A stretch of DNA of 40,156 bases, taken from sequence record ON528733; one strand, 5' to 3'. The notes under the pieces are model-generated. The model did no database searches. It was not told the DNA's origin and saw nothing but the letters and a program-made list of their open reading frames with translations. Positions 15,865 to 22,530 of the stretch are shown here, piece after piece. Position numbers and translations under genes: made by a program. The stretch's first letter is position 1; every line of letters starts with the position of its first letter. This DNA is from Shigella phage ESh23.

Positions 15865-16058
15865 TGGGCTGGATACTTCTGGTCATCGGCTACGGGCTAA
15901 TACTCGCAGTCATCACGAAAGACATCATCAAGGCACGTAAAGTCTACCGCTTCCAGTATGTATCACTGGGGCGCTGGACTGTAAGACAACCGAACGGACG
16001 CTTTCTGCGCAACCTCGCAAACGTCTGGGATATAGCAACCTTAGGGAGTAAACTGTAA
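15864..16058 (+). CDS. small membrane protein, 65 aa (N-terminal TM helix, basic C-terminus)
   Basis: ATG-initiated version of track ORF 15768..16058; translationally coupled on both sides. Confidence 0.5.
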   Translation: MGWILLVIGYGLILAVITKDIIKARKVYRFQYVSLGRWTVRQPNGRFLRNLANVWDIATLGSKL

Positions 16059-16384
16059 TGAATAAGTCATACGGGATTAATCTGGTTCATGCTCTGGACG
16101 CAGACCTTAACCTGCTTTCAGCACTGGCTACAGGATACCGTCACAGGACCTCAAGTCACACCATTCGTCAACAGCAGGAGCGCGACCGGGTGCTGCAAGC
16201 AAGACTCCGGGCCGAGGGCCATAAGTCCGAGCTGATGTGTCTGGCGTATGGTGGACGACCTCGCACGGACGATGGTAAACTTCTGGTCTCAGGCTGGATG
16301 GCGATAGACCAGCGGTCAGGCATCAAGCATACATCCAAAGGCGACTTCAGCCATCTCCACGCTAACACACTGATATGCAAGTAG
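16058..16384 (+). CDS. hypothetical early protein, 108 aa
   Basis: ORF coupled to the upstream ORF (TAATGA); no motif recognised. Confidence 0.55.
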   Translation: MNKSYGINLVHALDADLNLLSALATGYRHRTSSHTIRQQQERDRVLQARLRAEGHKSELMCLAYGGRPRTDDGKLLVSGWMAIDQRSGIKHTSKGDFSHLHANTLICK

Positions 16385-16391
16385 TTTGGAC

Positions 16392-16410
16392 TAAACTATC
16401 ACTAAAGGAC
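16392..16410 (+). promoter_or_regulatory. variant phage-type promoter upstream of the RNAP gene: TAAACTATCACTAAAGGAC
   Basis: Matches the consensus except A for T at -2 (T3-like CACTAAAGG). Confidence 0.45.
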
Positions 16411-16487
16411 TCAAGGTCGAAAGACTCTAAGTCAGGACTGAAGTGAAAGACTTTAGTGATAAGACAACAGTTATAAGGACTTTAAGT

Positions 16488-19169
16488 ATGAGCGTCATCT
16501 CAATTGACAAACACGACTTCTCTGATGTGTCGAATGCAATCGAACCTTTCAACGTACTGGCGGACCACTACGGGCAAGACCTCGCAGTCAAACAGCTCCA
16601 GCTAGAGCATGAGGCATACACTGAAGGTGAGCGACGTTTCATTAAGAACCTTGAGCGTCAGACTGAGCGCGGGGAACTGGCAGACAATCAGGTTGCTAAG
16701 CCACTGATGCAAACGCTGGTCCCAACCATCGCTAAGGCTGTGCGTGAGTGGCATGAAGGCCCGGACGGTAAGTCCTCGACCTCTCGCCCAAGCGTAGCGT
16801 TTACCATGCTGAGCACTGACGAGAAGGCTGTCAAAGACCGCTCTCTGCGCATCTCTCCAGAGTCCGCTGCGGTCATCATACTGAAGGTCATTCTCAGCAA
16901 GCTGGTCAAGCCTGAGGGCATCCCGATAACTCCTATGGCGTCCGCGATAGGTCGCACACTGGAAGATGAAATCCGCTTTGGTCGAATCCGTGAGCAGGAG
17001 CAGGAGCATTTCAAGAAGACCATAGCGGAGAACCTGAAGAAACGCGCTGGCGCAAGCTACAAGAAGGCCTACATGCAGGCAGTCGAGGCGTCTATGCTTG
17101 AGCAGGGACAACTGGCTGACGCGTGGGGGACTTGGAGTCCGACCGAGGCAGTTCATGTAGGCATAAAGATGCTAGAGCTGGTCATCCAGTCATCGCAACT
17201 GGTCGAGCTGAAGCGCTACGGTGCAGGCAATGCTGCGGTAGACGTCGAGATGGTTCACCTGTCTGACTTCTGGGTCAAGAAGATGGCTCAGCGTGGCTTC
17301 TCTCTGGCTGGAATTTCCCCAGTTTACCAGCCCTGCGTCGTGCCACCTAAGCCGTGGACCGGGGTGGTTGGCGGTGGGTACTGGGCTAAGGGTCGCAGGC
17401 CACTCCCTCTGATTCGCTTAGGGTCTAAGGCTGCGGTCCAGCGCTACGAAGACGTGTACATGCCTGAAGTGTATGAGGCAGTGAACATCATTCAGCAGAC
17501 TCCTTGGAAGGTAAACAAGAAGGTGCTGGAAGTGGTGAACATGGTCGAGAAGCTGAATAACACGCCTATCGCTGACATCCCTCAGATGGAGCCGCTGAAG
17601 CCTGAAGACTATGCGGGTGAGACCGAGGAGGAGCTTAAGGCTTGGAAGAAATCTGCGGCTGGCATCTATCGACGCGAGAAGGCCCGACAGTCTCGCCGTT
17701 TATCGCTGAGCTTCATCGTCTCACAGGCTAACAAGTTCTCTCAGTTCAAGGCCATATGGTTCCCGTACAACATGGACTGGCGAGGTCGTGTTTACGCAGT
17801 CCCGATGTTCAACCCTCAGGGCAACGATATGCAGAAGGGCCTGCTGACTCTGGCGGTAGGCAAGCCAATCGGTGCGGACGGCTTCAAATGGCTGAAGGTA
17901 CACGGTGCAAACTGCGCGGGTGTAGATAAAGTCACCTTTGAGGAGCGCATCAAGTGGGTTGAGGACAACCACGACAACATCCTAGCGACTGCTAAGAGTC
18001 CGATGGATAGCATTGACTGGTGGGGCCAGTTAGACTCTCCGTTCTGCTTCCTCGCGTTCTGCTTTGAGTATGCCGGGGTTATGCACCACGGGCTGAGCTA
18101 CTCCTGCTCTCTGCCTATCGCGTTCGATGGGTCCTGCTCTGGGATTCAGCACTTCAGCGCTATGCTCCGTGACCACGTTGGTGGACATGCGGTAAACCTG
18201 ACGCCTTCCGGTAAGGTCCAAGACATCTACCGCATTGTGTCCGACCGGGTGGAAGAACAGCTCAAGGAGCTGCTGGTCAACGGCAGTGACAACGAGGTGA
18301 AGACCTTCGAGGACAAGAAGACAGGCGAGATTACTGAACGTCTGGTCCTTGGGACCCGTGAGCTGGCCCGACAGTGGCTGACCTACGGGATGTCACGCTC
18401 GGTCACTAAACGCTCGGTAATGACTCTGGCCTATGGGTCGAAGGAATACGGGTTCGCGGACCAAGTGTTTGAGGATACCGTGATGCCAGCGATTGATAGT
18501 GGCAAGGGAGCAATGTTCACGGACCCAAGCCAAGCGTCTCGCTTCATGGCTAAGATGATATGGGACGCTGTGAGTGTGACCGTAGTGGCTGCGGTGGATG
18601 CAATGAAGTGGCTTCAGGGTGCGGCTAAACTGCTGGCTGCCGAGGTCAAGGACAAGAAGACCAAAGAGGTCCTTAAGCCTTGCCTTCCGGTTCACTGGGT
18701 AACACCTGATGGCTTCCCGGTATGGCAGGAATACCGCAAGAAAGACACAACGCGCCTGAATCTACTGTTCCTTGGGTCGTTCAACCTGCAACCGACAGTC
18801 AATAAGGGGTCGAAGAAAGAGCTGGACAAGCACAAGCAGGAGTCCGGTATCAGCCCTAACTTTGTACACTCACAGGATGGCAGTCACCTGAGGAAGACTG
18901 TGGTCCACACCCACCGCAAGTATGGCGTGATGTCCTTCGCGGTGATTCACGACAGCTTTGGGACCATACCAGCAGACGCTGAGTTCCTGTTCAAGGGAGT
19001 CCGTGAGACGATGGTCGAGACCTACCGCGACAACGATGTGCTGCAAGACTTCTACGAGCAGTTCGCGGACCAGCTTCACGAGAGCCAGCGCGACAAGTTG
19101 CCTGAGCTGCCTAAGCGCGGTAAACTGAACATCGAAGACATTCTGTTATCTGACTTTGCATTCGCCTGA
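16488..19169 (+). CDS. single-subunit DNA-directed RNA polymerase (T7 gp1-like), 893 aa
   Basis: Collinear with recalled T7 RNAP from N-terminus (DFSDxxxAxxPFNxLADHYG) to C-terminus (LHESQxDKxPxLPxxGxLNxxDILxSDFAFA); ATG 16488 preferred over GTG 16443. Confidence 0.97.
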   Translation: MSVISIDKHDFSDVSNAIEPFNVLADHYGQDLAVKQLQLEHEAYTEGERRFIKNLERQTERGELADNQVAKPLMQTLVPTIAKAVREWHEGPDGKSSTSRPSVAFTMLSTDEKAVKDRSLRISPESAAVIILKVILSKLVKPEGIPITPMASAIGRTLEDEIRFGRIREQEQEHFKKTIAENLKKRAGASYKKAYMQAVEASMLEQGQLADAWGTWSPTEAVHVGIKMLELVIQSSQLVELKRYGAGNAAVDVEMVHLSDFWVKKMAQRGFSLAGISPVYQPCVVPPKPWTGVVGGGYWAKGRRPLPLIRLGSKAAVQRYEDVYMPEVYEAVNIIQQTPWKVNKKVLEVVNMVEKLNNTPIADIPQMEPLKPEDYAGETEEELKAWKKSAAGIYRREKARQSRRLSLSFIVSQANKFSQFKAIWFPYNMDWRGRVYAVPMFNPQGNDMQKGLLTLAVGKPIGADGFKWLKVHGANCAGVDKVTFEERIKWVEDNHDNILATAKSPMDSIDWWGQLDSPFCFLAFCFEYAGVMHHGLSYSCSLPIAFDGSCSGIQHFSAMLRDHVGGHAVNLTPSGKVQDIYRIVSDRVEEQLKELLVNGSDNEVKTFEDKKTGEITERLVLGTRELARQWLTYGMSRSVTKRSVMTLAYGSKEYGFADQVFEDTVMPAIDSGKGAMFTDPSQASRFMAKMIWDAVSVTVVAAVDAMKWLQGAAKLLAAEVKDKKTKEVLKPCLPVHWVTPDGFPVWQEYRKKDTTRLNLLFLGSFNLQPTVNKGSKKELDKHKQESGISPNFVHSQDGSHLRKTVVHTHRKYGVMSFAVIHDSFGTIPADAEFLFKGVRETMVETYRDNDVLQDFYEQFADQLHESQRDKLPELPKRGKLNIEDILLSDFAFA

Positions 19170-19181
19170 GGAGGCATCTAC

Positions 19182-19382
19182 ATGAAATTCGCACACAAGC
19201 AAACTGGCGTTAAAGGCGGAACTCAAATCGTGACCGTGACCGAACATAATGGCAAGGGTCTGGTAAAGACCACGGTCATTCCAACCGAGATGTCAAAGCA
19301 GCTTAACGTCCCATTCAAATGGCTGGTGCAGCAGGTTGAGAAGTCACACGAACAGGCCTTGACCGAGGCTGTGACGAAATGA
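19182..19382 (+). CDS. hypothetical protein, 66 aa (inserted after the RNAP gene relative to T7)
   Basis: Strong SD GAGGAGG 7 nt upstream of ATG. Confidence 0.6.
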   Translation: MKFAHKQTGVKGGTQIVTVTEHNGKGLVKTTVIPTEMSKQLNVPFKWLVQQVEKSHEQALTEAVTK

Positions 19383-19456
19383 CGGACCTTCAGTGGCTGG
19401 CCTTATGGCTGGCCTTCTTAGCAGTGTACACTTTAATCCAACGCAGAAGAGGTTAA
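19379..19456 (+). CDS. 25-aa hydrophobic peptide (MTDLQWLALWLAFLAVYTLIQRRRG)
   Basis: ATG overlaps upstream stop (ATGA); single TM-like segment; no clear SD. Confidence 0.3.
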   Translation: MTDLQWLALWLAFLAVYTLIQRRRG

Positions 19457-19460
19457 CCAT

Positions 19461-19931
19461 ATGTTTGGTAAGTCAAAACTTAAAGCGCAAATCAAAGAGT
19501 TGAGCATGAAGGCGGCATACTTGGAGCGAGCCGTAGAGGTCCGTGACAAGGACAACGAGAGGCTGAAGGATAAACTTGCTGAGTCCGAGCGCAGACGCTT
19601 AACGCCGCCAGAGCCTGTGACTGTGAAGCGTATGGTAGGCCTGAAGTTCAGGGCGCTGTTCAATGGCCTCTATCAGCCGACTGAGTTCAAGACCGGGCCT
19701 GGGCCATGTGGCAAGACAGTGACTCACTTCACCACGAGTCGTACCGAGCGGGAGCTGACTATCCACCAGCACCACACGGATGGCTCTCAGAAGGACTTTG
19801 AGTATCGACTTAGCGACATCGACGGTCGAATCCAGTACGACTATGAGCAAGTTAAAGTATACGGAGAAGAGGCCGAACGCGAGCGAGCGCTTCAGGCATT
19901 CGTTCGGGTAAGACCTCGCGTCGTCATCTAA
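19461..19931 (+). CDS. hypothetical protein with N-terminal coiled-coil, 156 aa
   Basis: SD AGAGG upstream; ends at the phi1.1-position promoter. Confidence 0.6.
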   Translation: MFGKSKLKAQIKELSMKAAYLERAVEVRDKDNERLKDKLAESERRRLTPPEPVTVKRMVGLKFRALFNGLYQPTEFKTGPGPCGKTVTHFTTSRTERELTIHQHHTDGSQKDFEYRLSDIDGRIQYDYEQVKVYGEEAERERALQAFVRVRPRVVI

Positions 19932-19948
19932 ACTATCACTATAGGATT
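19929..19948 (+). promoter_or_regulatory. phage RNAP promoter (phi1.1 position): TAAACTATCACTATAGGATT
   Basis: Conserved promoter motif. Confidence 0.7.
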
Positions 19949-19991
19949 AGACTCAAGGTCATGACTCAAAGTCGTGGCCTTTATGATTAAC
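19949..19991 (+). promoter_or_regulatory. conserved hairpin element (RNase III site, R1.1 position)
   Basis: AGACTCAAGGTCATGACTCAAAGTCGTGGCCTTTATGATTAAC; same family as 9786 and 27027. Confidence 0.4.
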
Positions 19992-20020
19992 CCTAACTCA
20001 ATACAATCAGGAGCTACACC

Positions 20021-20200
20021 ATGTATCAGAATACCATCAACTTCGAGCGCATCCGTGAACGTCAGCAGACTGAAGGCTACATTCCGAAGGGCCGCAAGCT
20101 GAACAAGACTAAACGTGGAGGAGGCGTGAAGGGTGCTTTCCGCAACGCTGAAGGTAAAGACTCGCTGGTTAACCAAGAGAAGTATTTCGTAGGAGCATAA
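20021..20200 (+). CDS. T7 gp1.1-like small basic protein, 59 aa
   Basis: GRKLNKTKR matches recalled T7 gp1.1; SD CAGGAG. Confidence 0.6.
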   Translation: MYQNTINFERIRERQQTEGYIPKGRKLNKTKRGGGVKGAFRNAEGKDSLVNQEKYFVGA

Positions 20201-20204
20201 CGCT

Positions 20205-20468
20205 ATGGGCCGACTTTATAGTGGCAACCTCAACGCTTTCAGAGCAGCGTGTAACAGGCTCTATCAGTTAGACTTCGCTGTTATATCTCAGGAGTTTCAA
20301 GACCTTGCGTCTCGCCAAGAGTGCATGAAACTCAGTGTCGAGGACCGGGCGGGTAACATATTCGCTCGTGAGTCCTTCGCACACTATGATGAAGACGTAA
20401 TGTACAACACTGCAACCGCCTTCCTTAACGGTCTCGCTGACCAACTCGACACATGGAGCAAAATATAA
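20205..20468 (+). CDS. inhibitor of host dGTPase (T7 gp1.2-like), 87 aa
   Basis: MGRLYSGNLNAFRAA...HYDEDV closely matches recalled T7 gp1.2 (MGRLYSGNLAAFKAA...). Confidence 0.85.
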   Translation: MGRLYSGNLNAFRAACNRLYQLDFAVISQEFQDLASRQECMKLSVEDRAGNIFARESFAHYDEDVMYNTATAFLNGLADQLDTWSKI

Positions 20469-21523
20469 TGACTACGACTATCAAAACTAACCCGCATCGC
20501 GCTGTAGATTACTCTGAGTCCGGCGTTAAGAAAGCACTGGAAGCTGCCGGGTCACTGGAAGCTGAAGTGAAGTATGACGGTGTGCGCCTGAACCTCCCGG
20601 TATTCCCAACTGGCGAGACCCAATGGCTGAGCCGCGAGTCTAAACCTCTTCCGGCCCTGAGCTGGATGAATACATCCGGTGAGGACATCGGGGCGACCAA
20701 GGCAAGCGACTGGCGGTGGTTCCTGAAGCAGGCTGGCTACGAAGGAACTGGCCTGATGATTGACGGCGAGGTCATGGTCAAAGGCGTGGACTTCAATACA
20801 TCTTCGGGCCTAATTCGCACGAAGAACCTCAAGCCTAACAACTATGAGTATTCGATGGACGCCCTTGAAAGCGAGTGGACCAAGGACATGAAGGGTCGCC
20901 AGTTCCGGTTAATCCCTGAGATGGTGACTGTGGTAGTTTACGGTATCATTGACATTAACGTCATCACTGACCCGAAAGCCGAAGGTCCTATCCATAGCGT
21001 CACTCGCCTGAAGGCCGAAGCTATCGTCCCTCTCCTCCAGAAATACTTCCCGGAAATCGACTGGGTTCTGTCTGAGTCACACACGGTCTATGACCTTGAG
21101 TCGCTCAACTCCCTGTACGAAGAGAAGCGTCTGGAAGGACACGAGGGTCTGGTAGTCAAGGACCCGCTGGGTAAGTACAAGCGTGGCAAGAAGTCAGGCA
21201 TGTGGAAGATGAAGCCTGAGGAGACCGTAGACGGGACCGTGTGTGGCCTCGTGTGGGGGACTCCGGGTAAGGCCAACGAAGGTAAGGTCATCGGCTTCGA
21301 GGTCCTGCTGGAGGATGGCATGGTGGTCAATGCCTGCGGTCTGACTGAAACACAGAAGGACGAGTTCACCACAGCGGTAAAAGAGTACCCAGAAGGTGAG
21401 GAGTTCTTCAACGGCTGGCAGTGTGAAGTCCTCTTCATGGAGCGGTTCCCAGATGGCTCCCTTCGTCATCCCAGCTTCAAGTGCTGGCGTGGAACTGAAG
21501 ACAATCCAACCGTTAAGAGTTAA
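20468..21523 (+). CDS. ATP-dependent DNA ligase (T7 gp1.3-like), 351 aa
   Basis: IKTNP, EVKYDGVR (adenylation lysine motif), MIDGEVMVKGVDFNTSSGLIRTK, EGHEGLVVKDP, KRGKKSGMWKMKPE, DGSLRHPSF; ATG overlaps gp1.2 stop. Confidence 0.95.
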   Translation: MTTTIKTNPHRAVDYSESGVKKALEAAGSLEAEVKYDGVRLNLPVFPTGETQWLSRESKPLPALSWMNTSGEDIGATKASDWRWFLKQAGYEGTGLMIDGEVMVKGVDFNTSSGLIRTKNLKPNNYEYSMDALESEWTKDMKGRQFRLIPEMVTVVVYGIIDINVITDPKAEGPIHSVTRLKAEAIVPLLQKYFPEIDWVLSESHTVYDLESLNSLYEEKRLEGHEGLVVKDPLGKYKRGKKSGMWKMKPEETVDGTVCGLVWGTPGKANEGKVIGFEVLLEDGMVVNACGLTETQKDEFTTAVKEYPEGEEFFNGWQCEVLFMERFPDGSLRHPSFKCWRGTEDNPTVKS

Positions 21524-21533
21524 CTAAACGTCA

Positions 21534-21565
21534 ACCCAGTGGTCTTCGTACTGCTGGGTCTTTTC
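21534..21565 (+). terminator. intrinsic terminator-like hairpin + CTTTTC (early terminator TE position, after ligase)
   Basis: 10-bp stem (ACCCAGTGGT/ACTGCTGGGT with 2 G-U pairs) followed by T-run. Confidence 0.5.
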
Positions 21566-21586
21566 GCATTCTGGAGGACCATACTC

Positions 21587-21679
21587 ATGCTTATGCTCTA
21601 TATTACATTAGTTTTCTTGTTGTCATGCCTGCTGGTCTACGGCCTTACGTGGCTGGTAGGGGAGTGCCTAGACGACTAA
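21587..21679 (+). CDS. 30-aa hydrophobic peptide (MLMLYITLVFLLSCLLVYGLTWLVGECLDD), T7 gene 1.4/1.5 position
   Basis: SD GGAGGA 8 nt upstream. Confidence 0.35.
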   Translation: MLMLYITLVFLLSCLLVYGLTWLVGECLDD

Positions 21680-21697
21680 GCTATCACTATAGGACAA
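21677..21697 (+). promoter_or_regulatory. phage RNAP promoter: TAAGCTATCACTATAGGACAA
   Basis: Conserved promoter motif (G at the position where others have A). Confidence 0.65.
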
Positions 21698-21725
21698 CAA
21701 TAACTTCGACCTAAGGAGGCCGACC

Positions 21726-21986
21726 ATGTTTAAGAACTTAATGTTCAACCGTTATTCCAATACCTTCCATCTGTCCCACAACCCGTTCGCTTGCATTAAG
21801 CGCAACGAGAAGCTGGGCTACTTCGGGAAGGCCGTTAAGCTGTCACCTACAGTCTTCGCTTTGATTACTCCGGGCAAAGCTGAAGAGGCTCGACAGAAGC
21901 GTGAGACCCACGTACCAGTGGTCTACACCAAGTGGCCTCGCGTTCGTCTGTTCGTTGAGTTTGTGAAGGAGGTGGTCAATGACTAA
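21726..21986 (+). CDS. hypothetical class II protein, 86 aa (T7 gene 1.6 position)
   Basis: SD AAGGAGG upstream; synteny. Confidence 0.6.
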   Translation: MFKNLMFNRYSNTFHLSHNPFACIKRNEKLGYFGKAVKLSPTVFALITPGKAEEARQKRETHVPVVYTKWPRVRLFVEFVKEVVND

Positions 21987-22287
21987 AAATGAACAGCCTA
22001 TCTACACGGGAGGTTCTGCTGACTACTATCAGGTCCACATAAAGAGCACCACTACCCCCGGTCGACCTGAGTACATCGCTGAGTGCAACGACATCATCGA
22101 AGCTCTGGGTATGAACTTTGCGGAAGGCAATGCGTTCAAGGCAATATGGCGTCGAGCCGCCCAGCGGACCTTGGGTCTGCGTAAAGCTGGCGCTAAAGAT
22201 GATGGTCTTTACGATGCAGAGAAAGTCGAGTTCTTCGGTGCTCGTATGGTAGCTCAGAGTAAGGCTGGTAATCATGACTCCGAGTGA
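21979..22287 (+). CDS. hypothetical protein, 102 aa; possibly related to the gp1.7 nucleotide-kinase family (GGSADYYQ motif)
   Basis: Start overlaps upstream stop; GGSxxYYQ motif recalled from DUF3310-type phage proteins; assignment uncertain. Confidence 0.55.
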   Translation: MTKNEQPIYTGGSADYYQVHIKSTTTPGRPEYIAECNDIIEALGMNFAEGNAFKAIWRRAAQRTLGLRKAGAKDDGLYDAEKVEFFGARMVAQSKAGNHDSE

Positions 22288-22369
22288 ATGGTGCGAGATG
22301 ATGTTCGAGAGGACAGGTAACACTGACTACCTCGAAATGTATAACATCTGGAAAGGGAGAGGGCTATGA
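22274..22369 (+). CDS. small ORF, 31 aa (T7 gene 1.8 position)
   Basis: Fills the gap between flanking genes; overlapping start/stop with neighbours. Confidence 0.3.
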
Positions 22370-22530
22370 GTCAGGACGAGAAGAAGTACATCGTGGAGCT
22401 TGAGGGTCGCGTTCAGTCCTTTGAGGTCCCGGTATACGCCAAGTCTCTGGACGAGGCGACCCTAAAGTCTCAGGAGTACGAAGATGCTGGTTTCGTGGTA
22501 GGCCGCATCCGACCTGAGCTGCACGACTAA
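22366..22530 (+). CDS. inhibitor of host RNA polymerase (T7 gp2-like), 54 aa
   Basis: [14 protein letters not shown] matches recalled T7 gp2 (SFEVPIYAETLDEA). Confidence 0.75.

What the first reader, a model, noticed from the sequence alone, without database searches (positions are those of the whole stretch)
19182..19931. Accessory insertion of three ORFs between the RNAP gene and the phi1.1 promoter
In T7 the phi1.1 promoters follow gene 1 almost immediately. Here ~750 bp encode a 66-aa protein with a strong SD, a 25-aa hydrophobic peptide and a 156-aa protein with an N-terminal coiled-coil and a His-rich central region (HQHHTDG), all upstream of the phi1.1-type promoter and RNase III element. 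This position is a known hotspot for host-takeover or anti-defence genes.
Basis: partly seen in the sequence, partly recalled or inferred. Interest (0 to 1): 0.6.

Follow-up and report, generated by a model that had tools for sequence, protein, structure and literature searches.

The report
Known early genes of K1F-like phage
The three small genes after the RNA polymerase gene are real, but they are ordinary uncharacterised early genes of K1F-like (Kayfunavirus) phages, one of them the phage T3 'gene 1.05' family; the only mildly new point is that the almost never annotated 25-codon membrane peptide gene is the best-conserved part of the block.

Summary
ORF66 (19182-19382), ORF25 (19379-19456) and ORF156 (19461-19931) lie between the RNA polymerase gene and a phage promoter plus an RNase III-type hairpin. 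T7 has no homologue of any of them.

This is not an insertion peculiar to this genome. The window is a complete Kayfunavirus genome, 98% identical over this 951-nt stretch to Shigella phage SFPH2.
- **ORF156** belongs to Pfam PF25755 (T3 gene 1.05), which holds the same position in T3, phiYeO3-12 and many other Studiervirinae. T7 is the one that lacks it.
- **ORF66** is PHROG 8082, the gene that K1F mislabels "gp1.1". It is conserved across the genus.
- **ORF25** was intact in 32 of 32 loci found through ORF66. Its ATG overlaps the ORF66 stop, and pN/pS is 0.28.

ORF156 alone is truly accessory: it was full-length in 14, precisely absent in 15 (as also in K1F) and truncated in 3 of those 32 loci.

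The structure models are confident but match no solved fold, so function stays unknown. My best inference is non-essential early host-interaction proteins that act at or near the inner membrane. The anti-defence idea is untested.

The parts
16390..16412 (+). Phage-RNAP promoter variant (ACTAAACTATCACTAAAGGACT) just upstream of gene 1. With host early transcription it would start the mRNA that carries gene 1 and the three ORFs.
   Evidence: Pattern search and aligned promoter copies. The hairpin-prone leader 16404-16487 folds at -19 kcal/mol, z = -1.9.
16488..19169 (+). Gene 1, the T7-type single-subunit RNA polymerase (893 aa from ATG 16488; the mechanical ORF list starts it at GTG 16443). Context only.
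   Evidence: Relatives are annotated as RNA polymerase.
19170..19174 (+). Shine-Dalgarno GGAGG of ORF66, 7 nt before the ATG.
   Evidence: Read directly from the sequence.
19182..19382 (+). ORF66: a small basic soluble protein with a three-strand sheet followed by two helices. It belongs to PHROG 8082, is conserved across the genus, and is annotated 'gp1.1' in K1F and EcoDS1 although it is not the T7 gene 1.1 family.
19379..19456 (+). ORF25: a 25-aa single-pass membrane peptide (MTDLQWLALWLAFLAVYTLIQRRRG). Its ATG overlaps the ORF66 stop (ATGA). Its last codons contain the SD of ORF156.
   Evidence: Intact in 32 of 32 loci found through ORF66, whether or not ORF156 is present. pN/pS is 0.28 (0.19 in genomes without ORF156) against 0.7 or more in the shifted frames. 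It is kept in K1F, LET1, ST35 and Kc166A. No RNA-structure signal, z = -1.2. Hydrophobicity.
19461..19931 (+). ORF156: a gp1.05-family protein. N-terminal coiled-coil helix (aa 2-47, nt 19464-19601), six-strand beta domain (aa 53-133, nt 19617-19859; Pfam PF25755), C-terminal helix (aa 135-149).
   Evidence: Pfam E = 1.5e-26. PHROG 8103 E = 5e-61. AlphaFold2 pLDDT 86. 100% identical to the SFPH2 protein. pN/pS is 0.28 for the domain and 0.61 for the helix. Present, absent or truncated in different relatives.
19764..19784 (+). HQHHTDG, the window's version of the family signature Q-x-[H/C]-x-D-G.
   Evidence: In a 66-sequence family alignment Q103 is invariant, position 105 is H in 45, C in 14 and T in 6, and D107 is kept in 61 of 66. 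C83, G79, G81 and F113 are invariant.
19927..19949 (+). Phage promoter of the phi1.1 type, overlapping the ORF156 stop codon.
   Evidence: The same arrangement is annotated in EcoDS1, T3 and phiSG-JL2.
19942..19995 (+). RNase III-type hairpin resembling R1.1. Cleavage there would form the 3' end of the gene 1 / ORF66 / ORF25 / ORF156 message.
   Evidence: Fold at -20.6 kcal/mol, z = -3.15. Sequence similarity to the annotated T3 R1.1 site.
20021..20200 (+). The true T7 gene 1.1 homologue (59 aa); gene 1.2 follows at 20205-20468. Context only.
   Evidence: PF08200 E = 5.6e-11 and PF10922 E = 4e-29.

Best explanation
The block is part of the standard early gene set of a K1F-like phage (genus Kayfunavirus), not a private insertion.

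**Transcription.** Gene 1, ORF66, ORF25 and ORF156 form one transcription unit. It runs from the phage promoter at 16390-16412 (and from host early transcription) to the promoter and RNase III hairpin at 19927-19995, with no promoter or terminator inside. That sequence layout is shown; processing into a single mRNA is inferred.

**ORF66 and ORF25.** These are a genus-conserved pair that appears to be translationally coupled through an ATGA overlap. ORF66 is a small soluble beta3-alpha2 protein. ORF25 is a 25-residue inner-membrane peptide with its RRRG tail in the cytoplasm. Conservation, coding signal and overlap are shown; translation and membrane topology are inferred.

**ORF156.** This is a member of the T3 gene 1.05 family. 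It has a coiled-coil stalk and a roughly 80-residue all-beta head with an invariant Cys/Gln loop cluster. It is a dispensable cassette, lost or truncated in about half of the genus. In about 40% of family clusters the same head sits on an N-terminal transmembrane helix plus coiled coil.

**Likely mode of action (inferred).** gp1.05 is most likely a non-enzymatic, oligomeric binder of a host component at or near the cytoplasmic face of the inner membrane. It would be made early to adjust the host, through takeover, exclusion or counter-defence. ORF66 and ORF25 would be a second, independent membrane-associated early function.
For: - Identity and near-identical relatives.
- Same genomic slot in T3, phiSG-JL2, EcoDS1, Dev2, Carena, L1 and Kc166A.
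- T7 lacks all three ORFs.
- ORF25 is intact in 32 of 32 loci, overlaps the ORF66 stop and shows in-frame purifying selection only, also where ORF156 is missing.
- ORF156 is full-length in 14, absent in 15 and truncated in 3 of 32 loci.
- Architectures among 108 family clusters are 52 domain-only, 42 TM plus coiled coil plus domain, and 14 coiled coil plus domain.
- Structure models.
- No sigma-70 promoter or + strand terminator-like site within or flanking the block, phage promoters only at its two ends, and the hairpin.
- No relative in 185,579 bacterial and archaeal species genomes, within the limits of the search patterns.
Against: - An invariant Cys with Q, H/C and D nearby could mean a metal site or catalysis rather than plain binding. 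I had no model coordinates to test whether these residues are close in space.
- Membrane association of ORF156 itself is not shown. It has no TM segment, and coiled-coil-plus-domain forms in Elunavirus and Ningirsuvirus have no nearby membrane peptide.
- ORF25 translation has not been demonstrated.
Confidence: 0.55

Rival explanations
1. ORF25 and ORF156 are the two halves of a split membrane-anchored gp1.05. ORF25 supplies in trans the transmembrane anchor that other genera have fused to the coiled coil and domain.
For: 42 of 108 family clusters, including phiSG-JL2 gp1.05 and Carena, are TM helix plus coiled coil plus domain in one chain. ORF25 ends 4 nt before the ORF156 ATG and contains its SD. 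An Erwinia phage record shows a homologue split into a TM/coiled-coil ORF and a domain ORF.
Against: ORF25 is kept intact and under purifying selection (pN/pS 0.19) in 15 of 32 genomes that have no ORF156, including K1F and ST35. Its start is coupled to ORF66, not to ORF156. Coiled-coil-plus-domain forms in Elunavirus and Ningirsuvirus have no upstream membrane peptide. The frame offset between the two ORFs varies between 82 and 83 nt, so programmed frameshifting is unlikely.
Confidence: 0.15
2. The block, or at least ORF156, is an anti-defence module that neutralises a host immune system.
For: It is expressed early. ORF156 shows patchy presence and absence. Its N-terminal helix evolves fast and exists as several alleles (pN/pS 0.61). 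The surrounding interval is mosaic, including the gene 1.2 position, whose product is reported to govern sensitivity to PifA.
Against: There is no similarity to any characterised anti-defence protein or fold. The tools include no anti-defence library. ORF156 presence does not correlate with the gene 1.2 allele. The same pattern fits any dispensable host-range or exclusion gene.
Confidence: 0.25
3. ORF25 is not a gene. The stretch is conserved as nucleic acid, for example as the SD and spacer for ORF156, a recombination anchor, or an RNA element.
For: Its 3' end (AGAAGAGG) is the SD of ORF156 and is nearly invariant. Almost no database record annotates it. One antisense frame also gives a low pN/pS of 0.44.
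Against: The sequence, including the AGAAGAGG/RRRG end, is retained where there is no downstream ORF156. The 25-codon length, the start codon and the stop codon are kept in every locus examined. In-frame pN/pS is 0.19-0.33 against 0.7 or more in the other sense frames. In Kc166A half the residues differ but the hydrophobic core and the RQRRRG tail are kept. There is no stable-structure signal and no Rfam match.
Confidence: 0.15
4. The three ORFs are a recent horizontal acquisition specific to this phage lineage.
For: They are absent from T7.
Against: They are present in hundreds of related genomes. GC content is 0.52, equal to the genome average. There are no flanking repeats or mobile-element genes.
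Confidence: 0.02

Closest known systems
Phage T3 gene 1.05 protein family (Pfam PF25755; PHROG 8103/6379), e.g. T3, phiYeO3-12, phiSG-JL2 and EcoDS1 gp1.05
   Same: The beta domain matches the HMM at 92.6 bits. The signature G-x-G-P-C-G-K ... Q-x-H-x-D-G ... G-R-I is present. The gene sits in the same slot, between gene 1 and the phi1.1 promoter plus R1.1. Function is unknown in all members.
   Different: T3 gp1.05 is only 90 aa (domain alone) and has its own phi1.05 promoter, with the primary replication origin overlapping its 5' end. Here there is no upstream phage promoter. The protein carries a coiled coil and a C-terminal helix. Unlike phiSG-JL2 and Berlinvirus forms, it has no fused transmembrane helix.
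Kayfunavirus 'gp1.1' of K1F / EcoDS1 (PHROG 8082)
   Same: ORF66 is 80-100% identical to most of these proteins, holds the same position directly after gene 1, and has the same coupling to the 25-codon ORF.
   Different: Nothing material. The name is misleading: ORF66 does not match the T7 gene 1.1 family (PF08200), which is the 59-aa ORF at 20021.
T7 early (class I/II) non-essential host-interaction genes (0.3 Ocr, 0.4, 0.7, 1.2, etc.)
   Same: Small, early, dispensable genes carried on RNase III-processed polycistronic mRNAs, and variable among relatives.
   Different: No sequence or fold relationship. T7 has nothing between gene 1 and phi1.1A. No target or activity is known for the present proteins.
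Small transmembrane micro-proteins of phages
   Same: ORF25 is a single hydrophobic helix with a basic cytoplasmic tail, overlapping the neighbouring gene, and usually missed by annotation.
   Different: No homology to any described family. The 'DUF2842' label in the phage IMM-002 record is not supported; the only Pfam hit is DUF5325 at E = 0.086, below its cut-off.

Membership tests
Pfam PF25755 Phage_T3_1_05 (gp1.05) | Match to the family HMM above the curated gathering score | tested here: met
   92.6 bits against a cut-off of 27, residues 58-128 covering profile positions 2-73 of 73. All 66 aligned relatives also match.
Pfam PF25755 Phage_T3_1_05 (gp1.05) | Conserved signature residues (G79, G81, C83, Q103, [H/C]105, D107, K111, F113, Y115, G122, R123) | tested here: met
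   All are present in ORF156. Family frequencies are given.
Pfam PF25755 Phage_T3_1_05 (gp1.05) | Position between gene 1 and the phi1.1 promoter / R1.1 in Studiervirinae | tested here: met
T3-type gene 1.05 locus | Own phage promoter (phi1.05) and replication origin upstream of the gene | tested here: not met
   The only phage promoter copies near the block are at 16399 and 19936; there is none between gene 1 and ORF156. Compare the T3 annotation.
PHROG 8082 (Kayfunavirus 'gp1.1') | Full-length HMM match | tested here: met
   E = 9.5e-42, residues 1-66 of 66.
T7 gene 1.1 family (Pfam PF08200) | HMM match for ORF66, which K1F and EcoDS1 label gp1.1 | tested here: not met
   ORF66 has no Pfam match. 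The ORF at 20021-20200 matches PF08200 at E = 5.6e-11.
P-loop NTPase (Walker A GxxxxGK[ST]) | Conserved Walker A lysine and Ser/Thr within an alpha/beta NTPase fold | tested here: not met
   GPGPCGKT fits the pattern literally. However, K85 is replaced in 10 of 66 relatives (L in 6), T86 is V, E or another residue in about half, and the domain is roughly 80 residues of all-beta structure.
Hint / intein domain | Significant sequence or fold match, and the catalytic blocks (N-terminal Cys/Ser, TxxH, C-terminal HN) | tested here: not met
   Only weak signals. PDB profile search gave E = 0.26 to DnaE inteins with the narrow alignment, and the hit was lost with the broad one. Foldseek gave PI-SceI at E = 0.15 with TM 0.13. 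No family member hit a Hint family in Pfam.
   No anti-defence library is available. PADLOC (defence systems) and NCBIfam gave nothing. The question needs experiments.
DUF2842 (label given to the 25-aa ORF in phage IMM-002) | Pfam HMM match | tested here: not met
   The only Pfam hit for ORF25 is DUF5325 at E = 0.086, 13.1 bits against a cut-off of 25. The IMM-002 annotation is shown.

The most novel reading that the evidence does not exclude
ORF25 is a translated 25-residue inner-membrane micro-protein, translationally coupled to ORF66. It is the most strongly conserved element of the gene 1 to 1.1 interval throughout Kayfunavirus and is almost never annotated. Together with ORF66 it would form a membrane-targeted early module, for example blocking a membrane-bound host defence or exclusion factor. 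gp1.05 would be an exchangeable third component that carries its own membrane anchor in other genera.
Probability: 0.2. Interest if true: 0.45.

Novelty: already known. Interest (0 to 1): 0.28.

Why it matters
As it stands this is routine. The genes are already deposited, as hypothetical proteins, in hundreds of T7-like phage genomes, and one of them has its own Pfam family.

The work does clarify four small points for people who annotate or engineer K1F-like therapeutic phages.
1. The "gp1.1" label in K1F and EcoDS1 is a misnomer.
2. gp1.05 is dispensable in nature, with clean deletions in about half of the genus, so it is a candidate safe site for payload insertion.
3. A conserved 25-codon membrane-peptide gene is being missed by annotation.
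4. The gp1.05 family exists in membrane-anchored and soluble forms, which points to action near the inner membrane.

If the block turned out to counter a defence system, it would add one more early T7-group effector.

Tried and rejected
- **Profile searches of PDB sequences.** Searches with three alignments gave only chance-level hits, E >= 0.26.
- **Hint/intein-like lead.** Weak, inconsistent signals were not confirmed by the broader profile or by Pfam. I dropped it as anything more than a lead.
- **Walker A reading of GPGPCGKT.** Rejected on family variation and fold.
- **Split-gene hypothesis for ORF25 plus ORF156.** Weakened by genomes that keep ORF25 without ORF156.
- **Programmed frameshift fusing ORF25 to ORF156.** Rejected because the spacing varies between 82 and 83 nt.
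- **Correlation of ORF156 presence with the gene 1.2 allele.** None found.
- **RNA element in place of ORF25.** No Rfam hit and no stability signal.
- **Apparent extension of the T3 tblastn match past the gene 1.05 stop.** This is an artefact of nucleotide similarity in the promoter and R1.1 region.
- **Literature.** Searches found only genome-annotation tables and no functional study.
- **Bacterial genomes.** The first scan failed for lack of a conserved stretch. The second found no relative.
- **Other libraries.** PADLOC and NCBIfam gave no matches.

Full report
**What the window is.** The region 19100-20050 is 98% identical to Shigella phage SFPH2. It matches 218 phage records, nearly all Kayfunavirus (K1F-like, Autographiviridae, Studiervirinae). 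The window is a whole, circularly permuted genome of that genus. Gene 1 (RNA polymerase) runs from 16488 to 19169. It is followed by the three ORFs of the finding, then by homologues of T7 gene 1.1 (20021-20200; PF08200), gene 1.2 (20205-20468; PF10922) and the ligase gene.

**Checking the observation.**
- GGAGG lies 7 nt before the ORF66 ATG.
- The 25-codon hydrophobic ORF has an ATG that overlaps the ORF66 stop.
- The 156-codon ORF has a helical N-terminus and the motif HQHHTDG.
- The promoter copy TCACTATAGG at 19936 is one of 11 + strand copies sharing the consensus ACTAAACTATCACTATAGG (12 pattern hits on both strands, against 2.2 expected by chance).
- A hairpin at 19942-19995 (-20.6 kcal/mol, z = -3.15) resembles in sequence the annotated T3 RNase III site R1.1.

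In T7, phi1.1A follows gene 1 by 26 nt. Neither tblastn nor family HMMs find any of the three proteins in the six-frame translation of T7. "His-rich" is an overstatement, because ORF156 has only four histidines.

**Are they genes?** I compared each ORF across related loci (18 unique modules for ORF66 and ORF156). pN/pS is 0.31 for ORF66 and 0.43 for ORF156. Within ORF156 it is 0.28 for the beta domain and 0.61 for the N-terminal helix.

ORF25 was the doubtful one, so I tested it most. I collected 32 loci through ORF66 alone, so the sample is unbiased with respect to ORF25.
- ORF25 is intact in 32 of 32, always 25 codons, always starting in an ATGA or GTGA overlap with the ORF66 stop.
- In-frame pN/pS is 0.28, against 1.1 and 1.3 in the two shifted sense frames.
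- In the more distant phages it is still present: Kc166A (about half the residues differ, but the hydrophobic core and RQRRRG tail are kept), LET1 and ST35 (ORF66 alleles only 53% and 47% identical).
- The region shows no RNA-structure signal and no Rfam match.
- Among the relatives' records whose annotation I inspected, only IMM-002 annotates it, with an unsupported "DUF2842" label.

**What ORF156 is.** It matches Pfam PF25755, "Enterobacteria phage T3 gene 1.05 protein", at 92.6 bits against a cut-off of 27. Homologues occupy the same slot after gene 1 in several genera:
- T3, phiYeO3-12, phiSG-JL2 and Kvp1;
- Berlinvirus (Carena);
- Elunavirus (L1, Stepyanka, SK1);
- Pektosvirus and Ningirsuvirus;
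- many Klebsiella phages.

Depending on the query, 288 to 566 phage records carry a relative. Across the subfamily, then, T7 is the genome that lacks the gene.

An exhaustive search found 116 clusters at 50% identity. Of 108 classifiable clusters, 52 are the domain alone, 42 have an N-terminal transmembrane helix plus coiled coil plus domain, and 14, including this one, have a coiled coil plus domain without a membrane segment. The family invariants are G79, G81, C83, Q103 and F113. Position 105 is His in 45, Cys in 14 and Thr in 6 of 66 sequences. No relative was detected in representative genomes of 185,579 bacterial and archaeal species, within the limits of the search patterns.

**ORF156 is the truly accessory part.** In the 32 ORF66-anchored loci it is full-length in 14 and truncated in 3. 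In 15 it is cleanly absent, with the phage promoter starting 9-10 nt after the ORF25 stop. K1F, the type phage of the genus, has the deletion form. Presence and absence are mixed across both ORF66 length variants (66 and 71 aa) and across gene 1.2 alleles, which indicates repeated loss or recombination.

The N-terminal helix exists as at least six very different alleles on a conserved domain. EcoDS1 and one other locus carry an extra 76-aa ORF (PHROG 28104) between gene 1 and ORF66. ORF66 and ORF25, however, are fixed parts of it.

**Structures.** AlphaFold2 models ORF156 confidently (pLDDT 86): helix 2-47, six long antiparallel strands over 53-133, and helix 135-149. The helix has a heptad pattern with Leu, Ile and Val at the a/d positions.
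- Foldseek gave nothing better than E = 0.14.
- Sequence profiles against PDB gave only chance-level hits.
- A faint intein (Hint)-like similarity appeared in three weak results but was not reproduced by the broader profile or by Pfam. I record it only as a lead.

**How it probably works.**

Shown:
- There is no sigma-70-type promoter and no + strand terminator-like site within or flanking the block in 16000-22500.
- The phage promoters sit only at 16399 and 19936.
- The composition equals the genome average.

Inferred:
- Gene 1, ORF66, ORF25 and ORF156 are made from one early message that ends at the R1.1-like site.
- ORF25 is translated by coupling to ORF66 and inserts in the inner membrane with its RRRG tail inside.
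- ORF156 is an oligomeric coiled-coil protein whose beta head binds a host component. Because 42 of 108 relatives tether the same head to the membrane, the target is likely membrane-proximal.

The idea that ORF25 is the detached anchor of ORF156 is attractive but weakened. ORF25 is maintained (pN/pS 0.19) in genomes without ORF156. In addition, soluble forms in other genera have no such peptide nearby. An anti-defence role is compatible with the early timing, the patchy distribution and the fast-evolving helix, but nothing tests it here.

**Comparison and novelty.** ORF156 is a member of the known but uncharacterised gp1.05 family. ORF66 is a member of PHROG 8082; K1F and EcoDS1 call it "gp1.1", although the real gene 1.1 homologue is the next gene. 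The ORF156 protein is 100% and the ORF66 protein 98.5% identical to the SFPH2 proteins already in public databases. Literature searches found only annotation tables.

The finding is therefore already known as a set of hypothetical genes. The modest additions are the conserved, nearly unannotated ORF25, the natural dispensability of gp1.05, and the relation between the family's architectures.

**Verdict.** Interest is low, at about 0.28.

Noticed in passing
window 16390-16412: A phage-type promoter variant (ACTAAACTATCACTAAAGG) sits directly upstream of the phage RNA polymerase gene, followed by a hairpin-prone leader. The polymerase gene could therefore be transcribed by its own product. [quoted passage not shown]
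   Followed up: partly
window 20205-20468 versus L002 2104-2391 (SFPH2): The window carries a T7-like gene 1.2 (dGTPase inhibitor, 52% identical to T7). Its 98%-identical relative SFPH2 has a different 95-aa protein at that position, about 29% identical. Two distinct alleles were recognised at this position across the genus, and about half of the loci matched neither. A paper reports that gp1.2 alleles govern sensitivity to PifA.
   Followed up: partly
window 21539-21679: Another small, strongly hydrophobic ORF (46 aa, MVFVLLGLFAFWRTILMLMLYITLVFLLSCLLVYGLTWLVGECLDD) lies just after the ligase gene. It has no PHROG match.
   Followed up: no
L001 1260-1490 (EcoDS1); also L012/L060: Some relatives have an additional 76-aa ORF (PHROG 28104, unknown function) inserted between gene 1 and the ORF66 homologue.
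   Followed up: partly
L062/L028 (Citrobacter phage SH3), L072, L077: The gp1.05 reading frame is truncated to 70, 16 and 42 codons although the DNA is present. These are either pseudogenes or sequencing errors.
   Followed up: no
L047 (phage IMM-002) 516-712; records of yong1, TM1, IME278: Several public annotations look spurious. IMM-002 labels short ORFs on the opposite strand, overlapping ORF66/ORF25, as 'metal resistance protein' and 'hypothetical protein'. It labels ORF25 as 'DUF2842'. ORF156 homologues are called 'microtubule-binding protein', probably because of the coiled coil.
   Followed up: partly
L021 995-1575 (Erwinia phage pEp_SNUABM_10); L022 (Pectobacterium phage Q19): gp1.05 homologues appear split into a TM/coiled-coil ORF and a separate, or unannotated, domain ORF. 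An intact 193-aa version exists in a related cluster (P0297).
   Followed up: partly
P0269 (1910 aa), P0305, P0309: Long repeat proteins hit the G-P-C-G part of the domain in 3 to 7 stretches each (repeat ATPGxCGG.ITETWTATDxCG). This is probably motif-level similarity to an unrelated repeat family.
   Followed up: no
window 16443 versus 16488: The mechanical ORF list starts gene 1 at GTG 16443 (908 aa). The likely start is ATG 16488 (893 aa, MSVISIDKHDF...), which matches the 893-aa polymerases of relatives.
   Followed up: partly
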